Positions 1 to 15,924 of a DNA stretch of 64,000 nucleotides are shown here, one piece after another. The notes beneath the pieces were generated by a model. It saw only the letters and a program-made list of their open reading frames with translations. It was not told where the DNA came from and made no database searches. A program made the position numbers and the translations under genes. Numbering within the stretch: the stretch's first letter is position 1; the number at the start of each line of letters is the position of its first letter. This DNA comes from an uncultured Clostridia bacterium (lineage in GTDB: Bacteria; Bacillota; Clostridia; TANB77; CAG-508): NCBI GenBank assembly GCA_934120675.1, contig CAKOUU010000002.1, forward strand, positions 37,455 to 101,454, read 5' to 3'.

Positions 1-696
1 CTAATTATTCAGTTTTTAAATGCCAATGGATATATTGTAAATATTGGAAAATCAAAAAATGTGTATGCATTAGATTCAATTGTTGCAGAGTATCAAGATA
101 TAAATGGAAATGTTGATAATATAAAAATAGAGATTAATTATATGAATAGAGTACATATTTTAGAAACAAAAAGGTTAAAAATAGATACAGATGTATTTGA
201 AGATAAAAACTTTAAAATTCATTGTGTTAACCCAATAGAAATTTATGCTACCAAAATATGTGCATTATTAAGTAGAACAACTGCAAGAGATTTATTTGAT
301 GTATATACATTAAGCAAATATAATTTATTTGATTATAAAGATAAAAAATTATTGAAACAATGTTTTTTGTTGGAATATATTGCAGTTAATAATTATACAT
401 TTGACGATATGAACATTGAAAGAATAGAAAGATTAGATAAACAAGATATAAAAACAAGGCTATTGCCTACGCTAAAAGATAGAAATCCAAGAAAAAGTAA
501 TATTGATGAAATGAAAAGATACGTAAAGGAATATTTAGAAGATATTTTGATTGTTGATGATAAAGCAAAAGAATTTTATGATAAATTTCAAAATGGAATT
601 TATGAGCCGGAATTATTATTTGCGGATGAAGAAATAATAAAGAGAGTAAAAGAACATCCAATGATTATATGGAAATTAGACCAAAAATTGAAATGA
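1..696 (+). CDS. AbiEii-family nucleotidyltransferase (type IV TA toxin / abortive infection); 5' end lies outside the window
   Basis: Frame 1 is open from base 1. Motif SRTTARDLFDVY is typical of DUF1814/AbiEii. The partner AbiEi would lie upstream of the window. Confidence 0.5.
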   Translation, partial: LIIQFLNANGYIVNIGKSKNVYALDSIVAEYQDINGNVDNIKIEINYMNRVHILETKRLKIDTDVFEDKNFKIHCVNPIEIYATKICALLSRTTARDLFDVYTLSKYNLFDYKDKKLLKQCFLLEYIAVNNYTFDDMNIERIERLDKQDIKTRLLPTLKDRNPRKSNIDEMKRYVKEYLEDILIVDDKAKEFYDKFQNGIYEPELLFADEEIIKRVKEHPMIIWKLDQKLK

Positions 697-1390: not shown

Positions 1391-1659
1391 TTTTTACTCC
1401 TTGTTTTTTGTATTATATCATATAAAATATTAATGTTAAAGTATTAATAATTGAAAAATTAAAATAAAAAAATTATATTTTAAAATATAGAAAATTGTAA
1501 CCAAAAAGTAATAAAAATGTAATAATTAGGGAAAAAATAGTTTCCGTAAAAGAAAAAAGGGGACTATTTTTTTATGACTAAAAATGCTATTTACAAAATT
1601 CTTTATATATGAAATGATATAGGTGTAAAAATATATGAGGATAGGGGCATTAGTTTTAT

Positions 1660-4218
1660 ATGAAAAAAAATAAAATTGTAGCATTAATAGTTTTAGGAAT
1701 AATATTATTGCAAATAGTAATACCATCATTAGCAGATATAGATTGGAATGTTGTATTTGCAGAAGAGATAAATACATGGGATATATCACAAAATGGAGAT
1801 GGAAGTGTAATGGCAACACTTTCAGATGATGGAACATTGACTATTTCTGGTAATGGAGAAATGGAGCACTGGAGAAATAGTTACGTTGTGGCTTGGGATA
1901 GTAATAGGAAAAATATAAAAAATGTTATAATAAATAATGGGGTAACCAGTATAGGAAATTTTGCATTTTCTGATTGTACAAGTTTAACAAATATAACAAT
2001 ACCAAATAGTGTAACAAGTATAGGAGATTATGCATTTTATGGTTGTGAAAATTTAATAAATATAACAATACCAAATAGTGTGACAAGTATAGGAAATTTT
2101 GCATTTTGTATGTGTACAAGTTTAACGAGTATAAACGTTGATTCTAATAATGAAAAATATATGAGTGATAATGGAGTTTTGTATACAAAGGACAAAAAGA
2201 CTTTAATACAATATCCTAGCAAAAAAGAGAAAACAGAATATATTATTTTACAAGGAACGACAAGTATAGAAAATTATGCATTTCATTATTGTACAAATTT
2301 AACAAATATAACAATACCAAATAGTGTGACAAGTATAGGAGATGATGCGTTTTATATTTGTACAAATTTAATAAATATAACAATACCAAATAGTGTGACA
2401 AGTATAGGATATCGTGCATTTTATTTATGTAAAAGTTTAACAAATATAACAATACCAGATGGTGTGATAAGTATAAAAAATCAGACATTTTATTGTTGTG
2501 AAAGTTTAACAAGGCTAATAATACCAAGTAGTGTGATAAGTATAGGAGATTATGCATTTCATTATTGTACAAATTTAACAAATATAACAATACCAAATAG
2601 TGTGACAAGTATAGGAGATAATGCATTTTATGGTTGTGAAAATTTAATAAATATAACAATACCAAATAGTGTGACAAGTATAGGAAATGATGTATTTAAC
2701 GGTTGTATAAGTTTAACAAGTATAAATGTCGATTCTAATAATGAAAAATATATGAGTGATAATGGAGTTTTGTACACAAAAGACAAAAAGATTTTAATAC
2801 AATATCCTGGCAAGAAAGAGGGAACGGAATATCTTATTTTGCAAGGAGTAGAAAGTATAGAAGATTATGCATTTTGGGGTTGTGGGAATTTAACCAATAT
2901 AATAATACCAAATGGTGTGACAAGTATAGGAGATTCTGCATTTTATAGGTGTACAAGTTTAACCAATATAACAATACCAAATAGTGTGACAAGTATAGGA
3001 GATTATGCATTTTGGTATTGTAATTTAAAAAATATAACAATACCAAATGGTGTGACAAGTATAGGATATTCTGCATTTTATAGTTGTACAAGTTTAACAA
3101 ATATAACAATACCAAATAGTGTGACAAGTATAGGAGATTTTGCATTTAATGAATGTACAAGTTTAACAAATATAGCAATACCAGATAGTGTGACAAGTAT
3201 AGGTGATCATGCGTTTTATAAGTGTGACAGTTTATCAGTATTATGCAAAAGTAATTCATATGCAGAACAATATGCAAAAGAAAATAATATTAAATATGTT
3301 ATAGATGATTCTGTGCCAACAATAAAAAATGTAACAGGAAATGAAAAATGGACCAAGGACAAGGTAATATTAATAGTAAATGCAGAAGATAGTTTATCAG
3401 GACTAGCAACTGAAGCATATAGTTTTGATAATGGGCAAACATGGCAGAAAGAGAATACAAAAACATATACAGAAAATATACAAGGAGTAATAATAAAAGT
3501 AAGAGATGCAGTTGGAAATATAGCAACACAAGAAATAGGAACAATAAAAATAGATAACCAAGCGCCAACAATAAAAAGTATAACCGGAAACCCAACACAA
3601 TGGACTAAAGACAAAGTAATATTAACAATAAGTGCAGAAGATAGTTTATCAGGGCTAGCAACTGAAGCATATAGTTTTGATAATGGGCAAACATGGCAGA
3701 AAGAGAATACTAAAACATATACAGAAAATACACAAGGAATTATTATAAAAGTAAGAGATGCAGTTGGAAATGTTGCAACATATAAAACAATAGACATAAA
3801 TAATATATTAAAAATAGAAATTAGTAATTATGAAAAAATAACAAAAGATAATAATGAGTACTTAACAAAAATAGAGGCAAATACAACGATAGCACAATTA
3901 AAAGAAAAAATAAAAACAAATGGAACAATAAAAGTTTTAAAAGACAACAATGAAATAACAGATACAAATACACTTGTAGGAACAGGAATGCAAATACAAA
4001 TAGAAACAGAAAAATATATAGCAATAGTAAAAGCAGATTTAAATGGAGACGGAAAAATTGGATTAAGTGATTTATCAAACATAAAATTTAGTTTGATAGG
4101 AAAAAAACAACTAAGTATAGAAGCACAAATGGCAGGAGACATCAATGGAGACGAAAAAGTATCATTAAGTGATATGGCTAAATTAAAAATGTATTTGGTA
4201 GGAAAAGCAAATATATAA
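1660..4218 (+). CDS. Cell-surface leucine-rich-repeat (BspA-type) protein with two Ig-like repeats and a C-terminal type-I dockerin
   Basis: Signal peptide. About 17 tandem 23-aa LRR units (NITIPNSVTSIGDYAFYGC...). Two ~90-aa repeats (SLSGLATEAYSFDNGQTWQKENTKTYTEN). C-terminus carries two Ca-binding loops, DLNGDGKIGLSD and DINGDEKVSLSD. Confidence 0.75.
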   Translation: MKKNKIVALIVLGIILLQIVIPSLADIDWNVVFAEEINTWDISQNGDGSVMATLSDDGTLTISGNGEMEHWRNSYVVAWDSNRKNIKNVIINNGVTSIGNFAFSDCTSLTNITIPNSVTSIGDYAFYGCENLINITIPNSVTSIGNFAFCMCTSLTSINVDSNNEKYMSDNGVLYTKDKKTLIQYPSKKEKTEYIILQGTTSIENYAFHYCTNLTNITIPNSVTSIGDDAFYICTNLINITIPNSVTSIGYRAFYLCKSLTNITIPDGVISIKNQTFYCCESLTRLIIPSSVISIGDYAFHYCTNLTNITIPNSVTSIGDNAFYGCENLINITIPNSVTSIGNDVFNGCISLTSINVDSNNEKYMSDNGVLYTKDKKILIQYPGKKEGTEYLILQGVESIEDYAFWGCGNLTNIIIPNGVTSIGDSAFYRCTSLTNITIPNSVTSIGDYAFWYCNLKNITIPNGVTSIGYSAFYSCTSLTNITIPNSVTSIGDFAFNECTSLTNIAIPDSVTSIGDHAFYKCDSLSVLCKSNSYAEQYAKENNIKYVIDDSVPTIKNVTGNEKWTKDKVILIVNAEDSLSGLATEAYSFDNGQTWQKENTKTYTENIQGVIIKVRDAVGNIATQEIGTIKIDNQAPTIKSITGNPTQWTKDKVILTISAEDSLSGLATEAYSFDNGQTWQKENTKTYTENTQGIIIKVRDAVGNVATYKTIDINNILKIEISNYEKITKDNNEYLTKIEANTTIAQLKEKIKTNGTIKVLKDNNEITDTNTLVGTGMQIQIETEKYIAIVKADLNGDGKIGLSDLSNIKFSLIGKKQLSIEAQMAGDINGDEKVSLSDMAKLKMYLVGKANI
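1925..3200 (+). repeat. Tandem 69-nt LRR coding repeats, with a longer internal duplication (approx 2101-2230 vs 2695-2820)
   Basis: The repeated nucleotide string ataacaataccaaatagtgtgacaagtatagga recurs with a 69-nt period. Antisense ORFs 1925-3145 are artefacts of this periodicity. Confidence 0.7.
3292..3830 (+). repeat. Two tandem ~270-nt Ig-like-domain coding repeats inside the LRR gene
   Basis: Near-identical blocks ...gataatgggcaaacatggcagaaagagaatac... occur at 3420 and 3660. Confidence 0.7.
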
Positions 4219-4319
4219 TTTTTTATCCAAAATTTTGTAAAAAATTTATAAAAAACATTGATAGAAAAAAATAAGTATGATATTATTGGTGTAATTATTA
4301 TACAAAAGGAGAAAAAAAT

Positions 4320-5141
4320 ATGAAAATTAGAAAAAATTTAATCACAATTTTACTTGTATTAAGCACAATAATGTTAGTGTGTAGTACGAATGTTAGTAAT
4401 GCAGCAGATAATGCAAAAATAGGTTTAACTGCAGATAAAACAGAAGCGGTAGCAGGTGATACTGTAAAAATCACTGTAAAAGTAAAGGATATTACAGGAA
4501 TTACAGATGGAATTATAGGATTACAGGGAAATTTGGTATATGATAATACAATATTCGAAAGTGTTACATTTGCAAATTTAAATAATTGGGATAAACCTGA
4601 TTATAATGAAACTAGTGGAAGTTTCTTAACAGCAAAAGGAGATTTTGTTAAAAATGATGAGGATGTTTTTACAATTTCATTAAAATTAAAAAGTGATGCT
4701 AAACTGGGGGATACAAAAGTTCAATTAAAAGATATACAAGTAGCAGATTTAGACAAGGAATATACATCTACTGGTGCGGAAATTACAATAAAAGTAGTAG
4801 AAAAATCTATAACAGATGATGATAAAGGAAACTCAAACGACAAAGGAAATACCGATAACGGTGGAAACTCAAATGACAAAGGAAATACTGATAACGGTGG
4901 AAACTCAAATGATAAGGAAAGCACTGATAATGATGGAAAATCAAATGGTGGAAGTTCACAAGACAGTGGAACACCAACAACAGGTGATTCAACTACAAAG
5001 AAAACTGATGATACAACAAGCAAGGGCGTATTACCTAAAACAGGTTTAAATGGTAACATTTTAGTTATTGCAGGTATGGTTTTCGTATTAATAGGTGCTA
5101 TTTCATATAGTAAATATAAGGACTATAAAAAAATAAAATAA
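4320..5141 (+). CDS. Cohesin-domain protein with Gly/Asn/Asp-rich linker and LPXTG sortase anchor
   Basis: Signal peptide. A ~140-aa beta-rich module (KIGLTADKTEAVAGDTVKITVKV...) resembles type-I cohesin. LPKTG is followed by a hydrophobic stretch and a KYKDYKKIK tail. The gene sits next to the dockerin protein. Confidence 0.6.
   Translation: MKIRKNLITILLVLSTIMLVCSTNVSNAADNAKIGLTADKTEAVAGDTVKITVKVKDITGITDGIIGLQGNLVYDNTIFESVTFANLNNWDKPDYNETSGSFLTAKGDFVKNDEDVFTISLKLKSDAKLGDTKVQLKDIQVADLDKEYTSTGAEITIKVVEKSITDDDKGNSNDKGNTDNGGNSNDKGNTDNGGNSNDKESTDNDGKSNGGSSQDSGTPTTGDSTTKKTDDTTSKGVLPKTGLNGNILVIAGMVFVLIGAISYSKYKDYKKIK
4827..4934 (+). repeat. 36-nt x3 tandem coding repeat (GNSNDKGNTDNG) in the cohesin-protein linker
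   Basis: ggaaactcaaa(c/t)gacaaaggaaata(c/t)(c/t)gataacggt appears three times. Confidence 0.7.
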
Positions 5142-14295: not shown

Positions 14296-15924
14296 ATGGA
14301 TAAAATTTTAGATGAATTAAAAAAGATGGAAGAAATTAATATTGAATTTAAAAAAAGTGCAGAAAATGAAAGAACTATGAAAATTAAAGAAAAAGAAATA
14401 GCAAAGATGTACGAAAATGCACAGTTGAAGATGATTGGAACAGAAGAAAGAGAACAAGCTTTAAAGGAATATGAAGAAAAGAAAAACAGGCTTGAAAAAA
14501 TTAGTGAACTAAAAAAAGCCGGAGATAAGGAAATTGAGGAAAATTTTGAAAATAATAAAAAGGCAATAATTGAAGAAATAGATAAAAGGTTAGAAAAATA
14601 CGAAAAAATAGAACAAGAAAAAGAAAAAATGAAAGAAGCAAAAAAAGAAAGAGACGAAGAGGTTTTAAAATTAGAGAGTCAAAAAAATGTGTATTCTAAA
14701 ATTGCTCAAAACAGTAAAAAAGATATTGCAAATATTCTTGAAAAATTAAATAATGGTGAACGAGTTAGTATGGATAGACTAACAGATGCTCAAAATGAAT
14801 ATAATGCAAATGTGTCAAAAGTCATTGGTATCGAAAACCAAATTAAAGAATTAAATGATAAAGAATTTGAAATTTCAGAGGATATTGAAAAGAATCCAGA
14901 GGAAATATTGGATTTACAATATTTAAAGTATAGAATTGTTGGAATTAAAATTAGTGAGCTTGATAAAATAAAAGAAGATCCTTTTGTTGAAAAATATGGA
15001 AAAGAAGAAACAAAAGATGAAAATGACAAGCCGGGAGAAAATTCTGAAAAAGGTTCAAACGACGAAAAAGACAAGCCAGGAGAAAATTCTGGAAAAGATT
15101 CAAACGACGAAAAAGACAAGCCAGGAGAAAATTCTGGAAAAGATTCAAATGACGGAAAAGATAAGTCAAGAGGAAAAACTCCTAAATTTAAAGATACAAT
15201 AGTATTAGATGCTTATAACAATAAACTTGTTGTAAATGGCGTACTAAAAGATTTCCTAGAAGTATTTAGAAAAGATGGAAAAAAACTAAAAGAAGATAGT
15301 GATCTTGCTATAGGAAGCTTATTTGCAGGCGATAAAAAGATGGTTAAATATATAGACTATGGATTATTAAAAGCTTTGGATGATAAAGATAGAAATCTTG
15401 CTTTAGAATACCTAAATGTTATAAGAGGAGGAGGAGAAAAATCTTCTAGTGAAAGTGCTGAAATATTAAAAAATGCAATAGATATTAAATATAAATTTAA
15501 TAATGATTTAAATACATTTTTAAGTTTTAGAAAAAAGATGATTGCAAGAAAAGCAGTTGAACTAGGAATTGCTGAAATAGAAGGAATAAATGACAAAAGT
15601 TTGGCTAAAAGAATAAAAGAAAGAATGTCTAAAGCAAAAAATATTAAATTATTTGGAACGAAAGAAAAAGTAAAAGAAATTGCAAGTGGTGATGTTAAAA
15701 CTATAGCTCAACAAGATAAAGAAAAAACGATTGAAAAAATAAAAGAAGATAGAGCTAATGGAAGTAGAATTATGCAAAATGTTAAAGTTGATGATAGTGT
15801 AAAAGAAAATTTAAATACTGTGTCTAAAAAGTATAGTGAAACTGAAAATGAGATTACAAACGAAATAGGAAAAGATGTTAGAAAAATAGTTGCTGAAAAT
15901 AATGAATCTGAAATTTGTGAATAA
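14296..15924 (+). CDS. Hypothetical cytoplasmic coiled-coil protein with 15-aa tandem repeats
   Basis: 542 aa, Lys/Glu-rich, no signal peptide. Three NDEKDKPGENSGKDS repeats. Confidence 0.5.
   Translation: MDKILDELKKMEEINIEFKKSAENERTMKIKEKEIAKMYENAQLKMIGTEEREQALKEYEEKKNRLEKISELKKAGDKEIEENFENNKKAIIEEIDKRLEKYEKIEQEKEKMKEAKKERDEEVLKLESQKNVYSKIAQNSKKDIANILEKLNNGERVSMDRLTDAQNEYNANVSKVIGIENQIKELNDKEFEISEDIEKNPEEILDLQYLKYRIVGIKISELDKIKEDPFVEKYGKEETKDENDKPGENSEKGSNDEKDKPGENSGKDSNDEKDKPGENSGKDSNDGKDKSRGKTPKFKDTIVLDAYNNKLVVNGVLKDFLEVFRKDGKKLKEDSDLAIGSLFAGDKKMVKYIDYGLLKALDDKDRNLALEYLNVIRGGGEKSSSESAEILKNAIDIKYKFNNDLNTFLSFRKKMIARKAVELGIAEIEGINDKSLAKRIKERMSKAKNIKLFGTKEKVKEIASGDVKTIAQQDKEKTIEKIKEDRANGSRIMQNVKVDDSVKENLNTVSKKYSETENEITNEIGKDVRKIVAENNESEICE
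15025..15159 (+). repeat. 45-nt x3 tandem coding repeat
   Basis: gacaagccaggagaaaattctggaaaagattcaaacgacgaaaaa appears three times. Confidence 0.7.

What the first reader, a model, noticed from the sequence alone, without database searches (positions are those of the whole stretch)
1660..5141. Minimal cohesin-dockerin pair: dockerin-tagged BspA-like LRR protein next to an LPXTG-anchored cohesin
The LRR protein ends in a canonical duplicated dockerin (DxNxDGxxxxxD twice). The next gene encodes a cohesin-like module, a repetitive linker and LPKTG. This looks like a two-component wall-display system in a non-cellulolytic context, comparable to the toxin/glycosidase cohesin-dockerin pairs of Clostridium perfringens. 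It sits in an accessory stretch with an AbiEii toxin fragment.
Basis: partly seen in the sequence, partly recalled or inferred. Interest (0 to 1): 0.55.

Follow-up and report, generated by a model that had tools for sequence, protein, structure and literature searches.

The report
Wall-anchored cohesin docks LRR adhesin
Two neighbouring genes in an uncultured human-gut Clostridia bacterium most likely form a plug-and-socket pair, in which a wall-anchored cohesin holds a secreted leucine-rich-repeat adhesin by its dockerin tail; this is a minimal, enzyme-free version of a known surface-display system.

Summary
ORF 1660-4218 encodes a signal peptide, BspA-type LRRs, two Ig-like repeats, a small beta-rich module and a C-terminal dockerin (Pfam Dockerin_1 31.2 bits, cut-off 22.9). 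ORF 4320-5141 encodes a signal peptide, one cohesin (36.8 bits, cut-off 24.1), a disordered repetitive linker, LPKTG, a membrane helix and a basic tail.

The AlphaFold models are confident for both modules. The cohesin matches C. perfringens cohesins best (TM 0.82). The dockerin matches the C. thermocellum type I dockerin (TM 0.93).

The two genes are gained or lost together as a ~3.7 kb indel in a hypervariable ftsH-rpsU island. In 13 of 16 related locus types a small anchored cohesin gene lies directly next to a dockerin gene. Cohesin clades match dockerin clades one to one (Mantel r 0.88).

Cargo proteins are LRR, Fn3/Ig or transglutaminase-like proteins, never glycoside hydrolases.

The principle is already known. 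R. flavefaciens ScaE, R. bromii Sca2 (which binds an LRR-dockerin protein in vitro) and Limousia cSca5 are all sortase-anchored single cohesins. I call this a new member of a known kind.

Binding, the sortase and the ligand are untested. The "AbiEii fragment" is only cut by the window edge.

The parts
1453..5134 (.). Two-gene cassette (~3.68 kb), present or absent as a unit. Borders are good to about +/-10 nt and lie in A-rich microhomology.
   Evidence: Alignment to L005 and L006, whose flanks are 97-98% identical. Those loci go straight from ycxB to rpsU. No integrase or transposase is present, and there is no plasmid or phage relative.
1660..4218 (+). Gene for the secreted LRR-dockerin protein (852 aa).
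   Evidence: Identical in L002. Seen on 25 contigs.
1660..1761 (+). Signal peptide (MKKNK, then a hydrophobic core). Cleavage is after SLA(25) or VFA(34); the exact site is uncertain.
   Evidence: Read directly from the sequence. Inference only.
1882..3294 (+). BspA-type leucine-rich repeat region: 23-residue repeats from 69-bp DNA units.
   Evidence: Pfam LRR_5 E 3e-127, four stretches. TRF period 69. Partial NCBIfam HupY/LrrG match.
3316..3849 (+). Two near-identical ~90-aa Ig-like / OmpL47-type beta domains, acting as a stalk.
   Evidence: NF047446, 42.7 bits against a cut-off of 40, two stretches. Not modelled confidently because no alignment depth was available.
3814..4029 (+). Small beta-rich module with one helix, immediately before the dockerin ('X-like' module, residues ~719-790).
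   Evidence: AF2 pLDDT 80-96. Conserved with the dockerin in L018 and L050. No significant PDB match.
4030..4215 (+). Dockerin (residues 791-852) with two Ca-binding loops and helices. The two halves are 12/23 identical.
   Evidence: PF00404, 31.2 bits above 22.9. phmmer to type I dockerins, E ~1e-5. The model superposes on 2ccl_B and 1ohz_B with TM 0.93 and rmsd 0.7 A.
4219..4319 (+). Intergenic spacer with a promoter-like site (TTGATA-17-TATTAT, 4258-4286) and an AAAGGAG ribosome-binding site. No terminator-like hairpin.
   Evidence: These are consensus matches only.
4320..5141 (+). Gene for the wall-anchored single-cohesin protein (273 aa).
   Evidence: Seen on 50 contigs.
4320..4403 (+). 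Signal peptide, probably cleaved after SNA(28).
   Evidence: Sequence plus AF2 helix 3-21. Inference only.
4404..4814 (+). Cohesin module, a nine-strand beta sandwich.
   Evidence: PF00963, 36.8 bits above 24.1. AF2 pLDDT 93-98. Foldseek hits to 2vo8 and 2jh2 with TM 0.82 and rmsd 2.2 A.
4815..5030 (+). Disordered D/N/G/K/S/T-rich linker containing the 36-bp tandem repeat (4827-4947). It probably spans the wall.
   Evidence: pLDDT below 50. TRF result. Length variants of 261, 273 and 285 aa among cluster members.
5031..5138 (+). Sorting signal: LPKTG, a hydrophobic helix and the basic tail KYKDYKKIK.
   Evidence: TIGR01167, 18.2 above 15.9. AF2 helix 245-271.

Best explanation
The region is a self-contained two-gene surface-display cassette.

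Proposed steps:
1. Both proteins are exported through Sec signal peptides (inferred).
2. A sortase cleaves the 273-aa protein at LPKT|G and links it covalently to peptidoglycan (inferred; no sortase gene was seen).
3. Its ~70-residue disordered linker passes through the wall and holds a single cohesin at the outer tip.
4. The 852-aa protein is secreted. Its C-terminal type-I-like dockerin folds around two Ca2+ ions and binds the neighbour's cohesin non-covalently. This is inferred from homology, gene coupling and matched diversification.
5. A ~20-repeat BspA-type LRR solenoid is therefore displayed on a stalk made of two Ig-like domains and a small beta module.

The likely role is adhesion to host, mucus, food particles or other microbes. 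The ligand is unknown.

The cassette is strain-variable. Relatives use the same socket-and-plug design with other matched cohesin/dockerin types and other non-enzymatic cargo.
For: Domains score above curated cut-offs.

The models are confident. The cohesin has pLDDT 93-98 and TM 0.82 to C. perfringens cohesins. The dockerin has pLDDT ~90-96 and TM 0.93 to the C. thermocellum type I dockerin.

The sorting signal is complete.

The two genes are one 3.68-kb indel relative to L005 and L006.

A family of small single-cohesin proteins exists, about 85% of which carry an [LI]Px[TA]G signal plus a membrane segment.

Of 16 distinct locus types, 13 have a dockerin gene immediately adjacent, one has it one gene away, one is probable and one has none. 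Outside cohesin loci, about 1.3 Mb of related DNA held a single stray dockerin ORF, in L050.

Cohesin clades A-D each pair with one dockerin clade. Gene order and dockerin position are reversed in clade C. Mantel r is 0.88 with p 2e-4.

There is experimental precedent: R. bromii Sca2 (cohesin plus sortase signal) binds a 2xLRR-dockerin protein (PMC4611034).
Against: No sortase gene is present in the window or in any held locus.

The whole genome was not available, so other dockerin-bearing clients or other cohesins cannot be excluded.

The mirror-tree correlation is partly inflated by shared phylogeny.

Dockerin loop position 9 is G in the first loop and S in the second, not the usual D/N. The second loop has E at position 6.

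L037 carries a lone cohesin with no dockerin gene nearby.
Confidence: 0.75

Rival explanations
1. The cohesin is a general cell-wall anchor, like ScaE, Sca2 or cSca5, for several dockerin-bearing proteins encoded elsewhere in the genome, possibly including enzymes. On this view the LRR protein is only one client and the locus is part of a larger cellulosome-like system.
For: Known anchored single cohesins bind many dockerins (PMC4611034; PMC12997984). In L040, L054, L089 and L101, two dockerin proteins flank one cohesin.
Against: A search with the X-dockerin region found only 12 clusters, mostly fragments of the same gene, and no enzyme architecture. There is no second dockerin in 64 kb. No glycoside hydrolase lies in any neighbourhood. 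The pair is gained and lost as a unit.
Confidence: 0.17
2. The two modules do not bind each other. The dockerin is only a Ca2+-binding stabilising module or binds something else. The cohesin-like sandwich is a spacer or a ligand-binding domain of an independent LPXTG surface protein, and the adjacency is inherited synteny.
For: Many non-cellulosomal cohesin- and dockerin-like modules have no demonstrated partner (my own recollection of Peer et al. 2009, not read here). L037 has a lone cohesin. Type A and type B loci share ancestry at the ftsH-rpsU spot.
Against: Adjacency also holds in unrelated genomic contexts and in the opposite gene order: clade C, L041, L098 and L100. Cohesin and dockerin types match one to one. 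The two genes are co-inserted or co-deleted.
Confidence: 0.06
3. The feature is an artefact or decaying genes: a chance motif match, an assembly chimera or pseudogenes.
For: Many database copies of the LRR gene are fragments of 76-702 aa.
Against: The fragments come from scaffold gaps, for example 100 N in L001. Intact identical copies occur on many independent contigs from different cohorts. HMM scores are above the curated cut-offs.
Confidence: 0.02

Closest known systems
ScaE of Ruminococcus flavefaciens / R. champanellensis (sortase-anchored single-cohesin anchoring scaffoldin)
   Same: Signal peptide, one cohesin, a linker and an LPXTG sorting signal. It holds dockerin-bearing proteins on the cell wall. 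R. flavefaciens FD-1 also has many SIGN-LRR-Doc proteins, 10 of them in the ScaE-related dockerin group 4a (PMC2930009).
   Different: ScaE anchors a whole cellulosome through the ScaB dockerin and also anchors the cellulose-binding protein CttA. Here there are no scaffoldins or enzymes. The cohesin is not closest to ScaE by fold or sequence: no ScaE complex appears among the top 50 Foldseek matches. The host lineage is also different.
Sca2 of Ruminococcus bromii (amylosome)
   Same: A cohesin plus a C-terminal sortase signal. It was shown in vitro to bind a 2xLRR-dockerin protein, CBL14720.1 (PMC4611034). That is the same kind of interaction proposed here.
   Different: Sca2 is 534 aa and promiscuous, also binding amylases and a peptidase, and it is part of a starch-degrading system. 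Here a 273-aa protein sits in an apparently dedicated gene pair.
cSca5 of Limousia pullorum (mucinolysome)
   Same: An N-terminal cohesin with a C-terminal LPxTG anchor in a gut Clostridia bacterium (PMC12997984).
   Different: cSca5 is predicted to dock multi-cohesin scaffoldins and most glycoside hydrolases. Here the cargo is a non-enzymatic LRR protein.
Clostridium perfringens non-cellulosomal cohesin-dockerin pairs (NagH/NagJ/NanJ family; PDB 2vo8, 2jh2, 2w1n, 2ozn)
   Same: These are the best structural matches of the cohesin (TM 0.82, rmsd 2.2-2.5 A). They have a weak profile match (E 1e-3). The context is non-cellulolytic and host-associated.
   Different: In C. perfringens both modules sit inside large secreted glycosidases or toxins and link enzymes to each other. 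Here the cohesin is on a dedicated wall anchor. Sequence identity is only 14-18%.
BspA-like LRR surface proteins (Pfam LRR_5; streptococcal HupY/LrrG)
   Same: A 23-residue LRR_5 solenoid (E 3e-127) and a partial match to the HupY/LrrG adhesin model.
   Different: Those proteins are anchored directly, by LPXTG, a lipobox or a T9SS C-terminal domain. Here anchoring is outsourced to a dockerin. The score of 201 bits is far below the equivalog cut-off of 1250.

Membership tests
Cohesin (PF00963) | Profile match above the curated cut-off | tested here: met
   36.8 bits against 24.1, residues 36-151.
Cohesin (PF00963) | Nine-stranded beta-sandwich (jelly-roll) fold | tested here: met
   AF2 pLDDT 93-98. 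All significant Foldseek PDB matches are cohesins, the best with TM 0.82.
Cohesin (PF00963) | Binds a dockerin | not testable with these tools
Only indirect evidence is available.
Dockerin type I (PF00404) | Profile match above the cut-off, with a duplicated 22-24-residue segment made of a Ca loop and a helix | tested here: met
   31.2 bits against 22.9. Loops are DLNGDGKIGLSD and DINGDEKVSLSD, and the two halves are 12/23 identical.
Dockerin type I (PF00404) | Dockerin fold | tested here: met
   The model superposes on 2ccl_B and 1ohz_B with TM 0.93 and rmsd 0.7 A, probability 1.00.
Dockerin type I (PF00404) | Ca2+-dependent folding and binding | not testable with these tools
   Needs biochemistry.
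Sortase-anchored (LPXTG) surface protein | LPXTG, a hydrophobic segment and a positively charged tail at the C-terminus, with an N-terminal signal peptide | tested here: met
   TIGR01167, 18.2 against 15.9. LPKTG at residues 238-242. Helix 245-271 and tail KYKDYKKIK.
Sortase-anchored (LPXTG) surface protein | A sortase encoded in the genome | tested here: inconclusive
   None in the 64-kb window or the held loci. The whole genome was not available.
ScaE-type anchoring scaffoldin | Architecture: signal peptide, single cohesin, linker, LPXTG | tested here: met
ScaE-type anchoring scaffoldin | Anchors a scaffoldin or enzyme complex via an X-dockerin; ruminococcal type III cohesin lineage | tested here: not met
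   No scaffoldin or enzyme lies in any related locus. The closest folds are C. perfringens and type I cohesins, not ScaE.
Cellulosome / amylosome / mucinolysome | Several dockerin-bearing carbohydrate-active enzymes plus a multi-cohesin scaffoldin | tested here: not met
   Within the sequence held there is one dockerin, one cohesin and no CAZyme. The X-dockerin search gave no enzyme architectures. The genome-wide count was not possible.
C. perfringens toxin/glycosidase Coh-Doc complexes | Cohesin and dockerin embedded in secreted glycoside hydrolases or toxins | tested here: not met
   The cohesin carrier has no other domain and the dockerin carrier is an LRR protein. Only the cohesin fold is closest.
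BspA-type LRR protein (PF13306 LRR_5) | LRR_5 repeats | tested here: met
   E 3e-127, four stretches.
AbiE type IV toxin-antitoxin (neighbour) | Full-length AbiEii with an upstream partner | tested here: met
   A 321-aa AbiEii follows a 250-aa ORF in L001, L002 and L006. The window begins inside the gene. The 250-aa partner has no Pfam hit.

The most novel reading that the evidence does not exclude
The small anchored cohesins are not leftovers of cellulosomes. On this reading they form a large, undescribed class of dedicated one-to-one socket-and-plug cassettes in gut Clostridia. Each cohesin type is specificity-matched to the dockerin of the adhesin gene beside it (LRR, Fn3/Ig giant proteins, transglutaminase-like). 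This would allow strain-level swapping, sharing or shedding of non-covalently held adhesins at hypervariable loci. It would be a modular adhesin-display system, distinct in purpose from enzyme-assembling cellulosomes.
Probability: 0.45. Interest if true: 0.55.

Novelty: new member of a known kind. Interest (0 to 1): 0.35.

Why it matters
The locus shows the cohesin-dockerin mechanism reduced to its minimum: one socket, one plug and no enzymes. The host is an abundant but uncultured low-GC human-gut Clostridia lineage.

It also points to many similar small anchored cohesins in metagenomes. The profile search returned 4,860 representatives at E<=1e-3. Of the top 137, 97 are at most 320 aa.

If the pairs really are specificity-matched, they explain how these reduced-genome bacteria vary their adhesins between strains. 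They would also supply a set of naturally orthogonal Coh-Doc pairs for surface-display engineering.

The finding does not change the known principle, which is already demonstrated for ScaE and for Sca2 with an LRR-dockerin client.

Tried and rejected
1. Genome-collection scan with the cohesin protein found no confirmed relative. The species representatives closest to the window (L004-L009) lack the cassette.

3. I looked for phase variation as the cause of the many truncated LRR-gene copies. I rejected it: L001 differs from L002 only by a 100-N scaffold gap inside the duplicated Ig-like repeat.

4. I tested for a mobile-element origin and rejected it. There is no integrase, only generic LRR similarity on four plasmids, and no phage hit.

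5. A sortase motif scan of all held ORFs found nothing convincing.

6. Rfam found no RNA family in the window.

7. The fold of the two Ig-like repeats was not resolved. pLDDT was about 30 for lack of homologues, so their assignment rests on the NCBIfam OmpL47-type hit alone.

8. The X-like module had no significant PDB match.

9. I considered filing the locus as a cellulosome or amylosome component. I rejected this because no enzyme or scaffoldin was found in any of the roughly 100 loci.
Full report
**Observation**

ORF 1660-4218 (+, 852 aa) starts with a typical Sec signal peptide: MKKNK followed by a hydrophobic core. Its other features are:
- Pfam LRR_5 (BspA-type) at E 3e-127.
- Two ~90-aa repeats that match the NCBIfam OmpL47-type beta domain (42.7 bits, cut-off 40).
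- A C-terminal Dockerin_1 match at 31.2 bits (cut-off 22.9, residues 792-846).

The dockerin has two loop-helix segments, DLNGDGKIGLSD-LSNIKFSLIGK and DINGDEKVSLSD-MAKLKMYLVGK. They are 12/23 identical. The second loop has E where the canonical motif has G, and near-identical database variants carry G there.

ORF 4320-5141 (+, 273 aa) has the following parts:
- A signal peptide ending SNA|AD.
- A Cohesin match at 36.8 bits (cut-off 24.1).
- A D/N/G/K/S/T-rich linker encoded partly by a 36-bp tandem repeat (4827-4947).
- LPKTG at residues 238-242, a hydrophobic segment and the basic tail KYKDYKKIK. The TIGR01167 LPXTG anchor model scores 18.2 against a cut-off of 15.9.

A six-frame scan found no other dockerin loop and no other LPXTG signal in the 64 kb.

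**Organism and setting**

GC content is 22-33% across the window. The rest of the window is ordinary chromosome:
- rpsU, two M16 peptidases and an SNF2 helicase.
- A GIDA-family (PF01134) gene, rpsG, fusA, tuf and plsX.
- The dcw cluster, pyruvate formate-lyase, leuS and topA.

Exactly the same proteins occur on 25-50 metagenomic contigs from human-gut cohorts, including the Hadza.

The nearest genome records are uncultured Clostridia MAGs and 'Clostridium sp. 28_17', CAG:389 and CAG:575.

Across 80 related loci the core gene order is ftsH - [variable island] - rpsU - M16 - M16 - spo0E-like - SNF2. The island varies as follows:
- It is empty in L007, L011 and L027.
- It holds a TED/SpaA adhesin, an AbiE pair and ycxB in L006.
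- It holds those genes plus the LRR-Doc/Coh pair in the window's strain.

So 'accessory stretch' is correct. The AbiEii gene, however, is intact (321 aa in L001, L002 and L006) and is merely cut by the start of the window.

**The pair is one genetic unit**

L005 and L006 have flanks 97-98% identical to the window. Relative to them, the window carries a single insertion of ~3.68 kb (about 1453-5134). It contains exactly the two genes, their upstream region and the 101-bp spacer. The borders are short A-rich microhomologies.

No integrase or transposase is present. There is no plasmid or phage relative beyond generic LRR similarity.

The spacer has a promoter-like site and a strong ribosome-binding site. 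It has no terminator-like hairpin.

**Structure**

With a 52-sequence alignment, AlphaFold2 models residues 30-165 of the small protein as a nine-strand beta sandwich at pLDDT 93-98. The linker (169-241) is disordered. Residues 245-271 form a membrane helix.

All significant Foldseek matches in the PDB are cohesins:
- The best are the non-cellulosomal cohesins of C. perfringens glycosidases: 2vo8, 2jh2 and 2w1n (target-normalised TM 0.81-0.82 for 2vo8 and 2jh2, rmsd 2.2-2.5 A).
- Next come type I and type III cellulosomal cohesins.
- By sequence profile, the closest solved chains are scaffoldin cohesins at E 1e-6 to 1e-3, including NagJ.

For the C-terminal 313 residues of the LRR protein, only the last ~135 were modelled confidently (pLDDT 80-96). 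That part is a small beta-rich module with one helix followed by a three-helix dockerin.

The dockerin superposes on the C. thermocellum Xyn10B type I dockerin (2ccl_B, 1ohz_B) with TM 0.93 and rmsd 0.7 A. phmmer likewise finds type I dockerins at E ~1e-5.

**Family and gene neighbourhood**

A profile of the cohesin found 109 clusters in the word-indexed database. Nearly all are 200-290 aa and unnamed. About 85% end in [LI]Px[TA]G plus a membrane segment.

The exhaustive HMMER search gave 4,860 representatives at E<=1e-3 and 1,715 at E<=1e-10. Of the top 137, 97 are at most 320 aa, and 74 of those carry a sorting signal. The remainder are multi-cohesin scaffoldins, often with dockerins.

I examined 16 distinct locus types that carry such a small cohesin gene:
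- 13 have a gene with an HMM-significant dockerin immediately adjacent.
- One has it one gene away (L092).
- One has a probable dockerin remnant next door (L096).
- One has none (L037).

Outside cohesin loci, about 1.3 Mb of related sequence contained a single stray dockerin ORF, in L050.

The arrangement is not just inherited synteny:
- In clade C and in L098, the order is cohesin then dockerin protein. The dockerin is N-terminal and the cargo is an Fn3/Ig-rich protein of 1,150 to over 2,300 aa. In the clade C loci (L084-L088, L094) an HTH regulator lies upstream and the chromosomal context is different.
- In L041 the pair lies between spo0E and SNF2, and the cargo is a transglutaminase-like/Ig protein that also carries a cohesin.

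Cohesin clades map one to one onto dockerin clades:

| Clade | Loci | Dockerin signature |
|---|---|---|
| A | window, L018 | GLSDLSNIKF |
| B | L040, L054, L089, L092 | DVTDFLMLKRHLV |
| C | L053, L084, L087, L094 | ATQVELTNIIRYIV |
| D | L041 | (its own type) |

Pairwise identities of cohesins and of their adjacent dockerins correlate at r = 0.88 (Mantel permutation p = 2e-4, 11 pairs). Shared phylogeny contributes to this figure.

Cargo in all cases is non-enzymatic or at least not a glycoside hydrolase.

A search with the X-dockerin region of the window protein returned only 12 clusters. Most are fragments of the same gene, so there is no sign of further clients carrying this dockerin type.

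**Mechanism**

What is shown:
- Both proteins have export signals.
- One has a complete sortase sorting signal, a disordered spacer and a high-confidence cohesin.
- The other has a high-confidence dockerin behind an LRR solenoid.
- The genes travel together and diversify together.

What is inferred:
- A sortase attaches the small protein to peptidoglycan.
- The linker spans the wall.
- The Ca2+-loaded dockerin binds the cohesin. The internal symmetry of the dockerin leaves a dual binding mode possible.
- The LRR domain is thereby displayed as an adhesin with an unknown ligand.

In several relatives two dockerin proteins flank one cohesin (L040, L054, L089, L101). This suggests competition or alternation at one socket.

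**Comparison with known systems**

The architecture of the small protein is that of ScaE of R. flavefaciens, a single cohesin with LPXTG that is sortase-anchored. FD-1 also encodes 28 LRR modules in dockerin proteins (PMC2930009).

R. bromii Sca2 has a cohesin plus a sortase signal. It was shown experimentally to bind a 2xLRR-dockerin protein (PMC4611034).

Limousia cSca5 is another LPxTG-anchored single cohesin (PMC12997984).

The mechanism proposed here therefore has a direct, experimentally supported precedent. The differences are:
- The system is stripped to one socket and one plug.
- There are no enzymes or multi-cohesin scaffoldins in view.
- The two genes form a strain-variable cassette.
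- The cohesin is structurally nearest to the C. perfringens non-cellulosomal cohesins rather than to ScaE.
- The host is a different, uncultured low-GC Clostridia lineage.

I file it as a new member of a known kind.

The more novel reading is a large class of dedicated, specificity-matched adhesin-display cassettes. It is compatible with the neighbourhood data but needs binding and whole-genome evidence.

**Limits**

- No binding assay or complex model was possible.
- No sortase gene lies in the sequence held.
- The Ig-like repeats and the X-like module remain poorly characterised.

Noticed in passing
L002:1382-4486 (just upstream of the window start; also in L001, L005, L006, L013): The 1034-aa thioester-domain (TED) plus SpaA-repeat adhesin ends '...KVLPKTGY*' (L013: 'VLPKTGF*'). 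It has an LPKTG motif but no hydrophobic segment or basic tail after it. The ending is conserved across five loci down to 70% identity, and no downstream frame continues it. This is an unusual tail-less sorting motif.
   Followed up: partly
window 1-696 and L002:4666-6377: AbiEii (PF08843) is full length (321 aa) in related contigs, preceded by an overlapping 250-aa ORF with no Pfam hit that is presumably the AbiEi partner. The window simply starts inside AbiEii.
   Followed up: yes
window 24396-29087 and 29646-30581: A second large surface protein (1563 aa; TED thioester domain plus DUF11) with a C-terminal membrane segment, followed by a 311-aa protein with a Cadherin-like domain.
   Followed up: no
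window 22792-24077 (- strand): The D-Ala-D-Ala carboxypeptidase (Peptidase_S11) is split into two overlapping ORFs. ORF 23580-24077 matches profile positions 6-115 and ORF 22792-23619 matches positions 117-239. This is a likely frameshift, pseudogene or sequencing error.
   Followed up: no
window 4827-4947: The 36-bp (12-aa) tandem repeat in the cohesin linker varies in copy number between strains. Cluster members are 261, 273 and 285 aa long.
   Followed up: partly
L001:9291-9390: Many database copies of the LRR-dockerin gene are fragments because assemblies break in the duplicated Ig-like repeat or the LRRs. L001 has a 100-N scaffold gap there, not a frameshift.
   Followed up: yes
L041:7842-11663: A 1265-aa protein beside a small anchored cohesin carries a transglutaminase-like core, Ig domains, its own cohesin (ORF residues ~995-1124) and a C-terminal dockerin. 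It could act as an adaptor or self-associate.
   Followed up: partly
L084-L088, L094 (clade C loci): These cassettes have a divergently transcribed HTH_3/HTH_19 regulator upstream of the cohesin gene. An Fn3/Ig-rich protein with an N-terminal dockerin lies downstream, followed by a 158-166-aa ORF with no Pfam hit; L084-L088 also have a 529-616-aa ORF in between.
   Followed up: no
window 14296-15924 and 34483-36228: Two sizeable ORFs (542 and 581 aa) have no Pfam match at E<=1e-3.
   Followed up: no
window 33669-34370 and 38612-39544: An SSB with a ~118-residue N-terminal extension and an ORF with a Replication-relaxation domain (PF13814, E 1e-7) sit among housekeeping genes. They may be remnants of an integrated element.
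   Followed up: no
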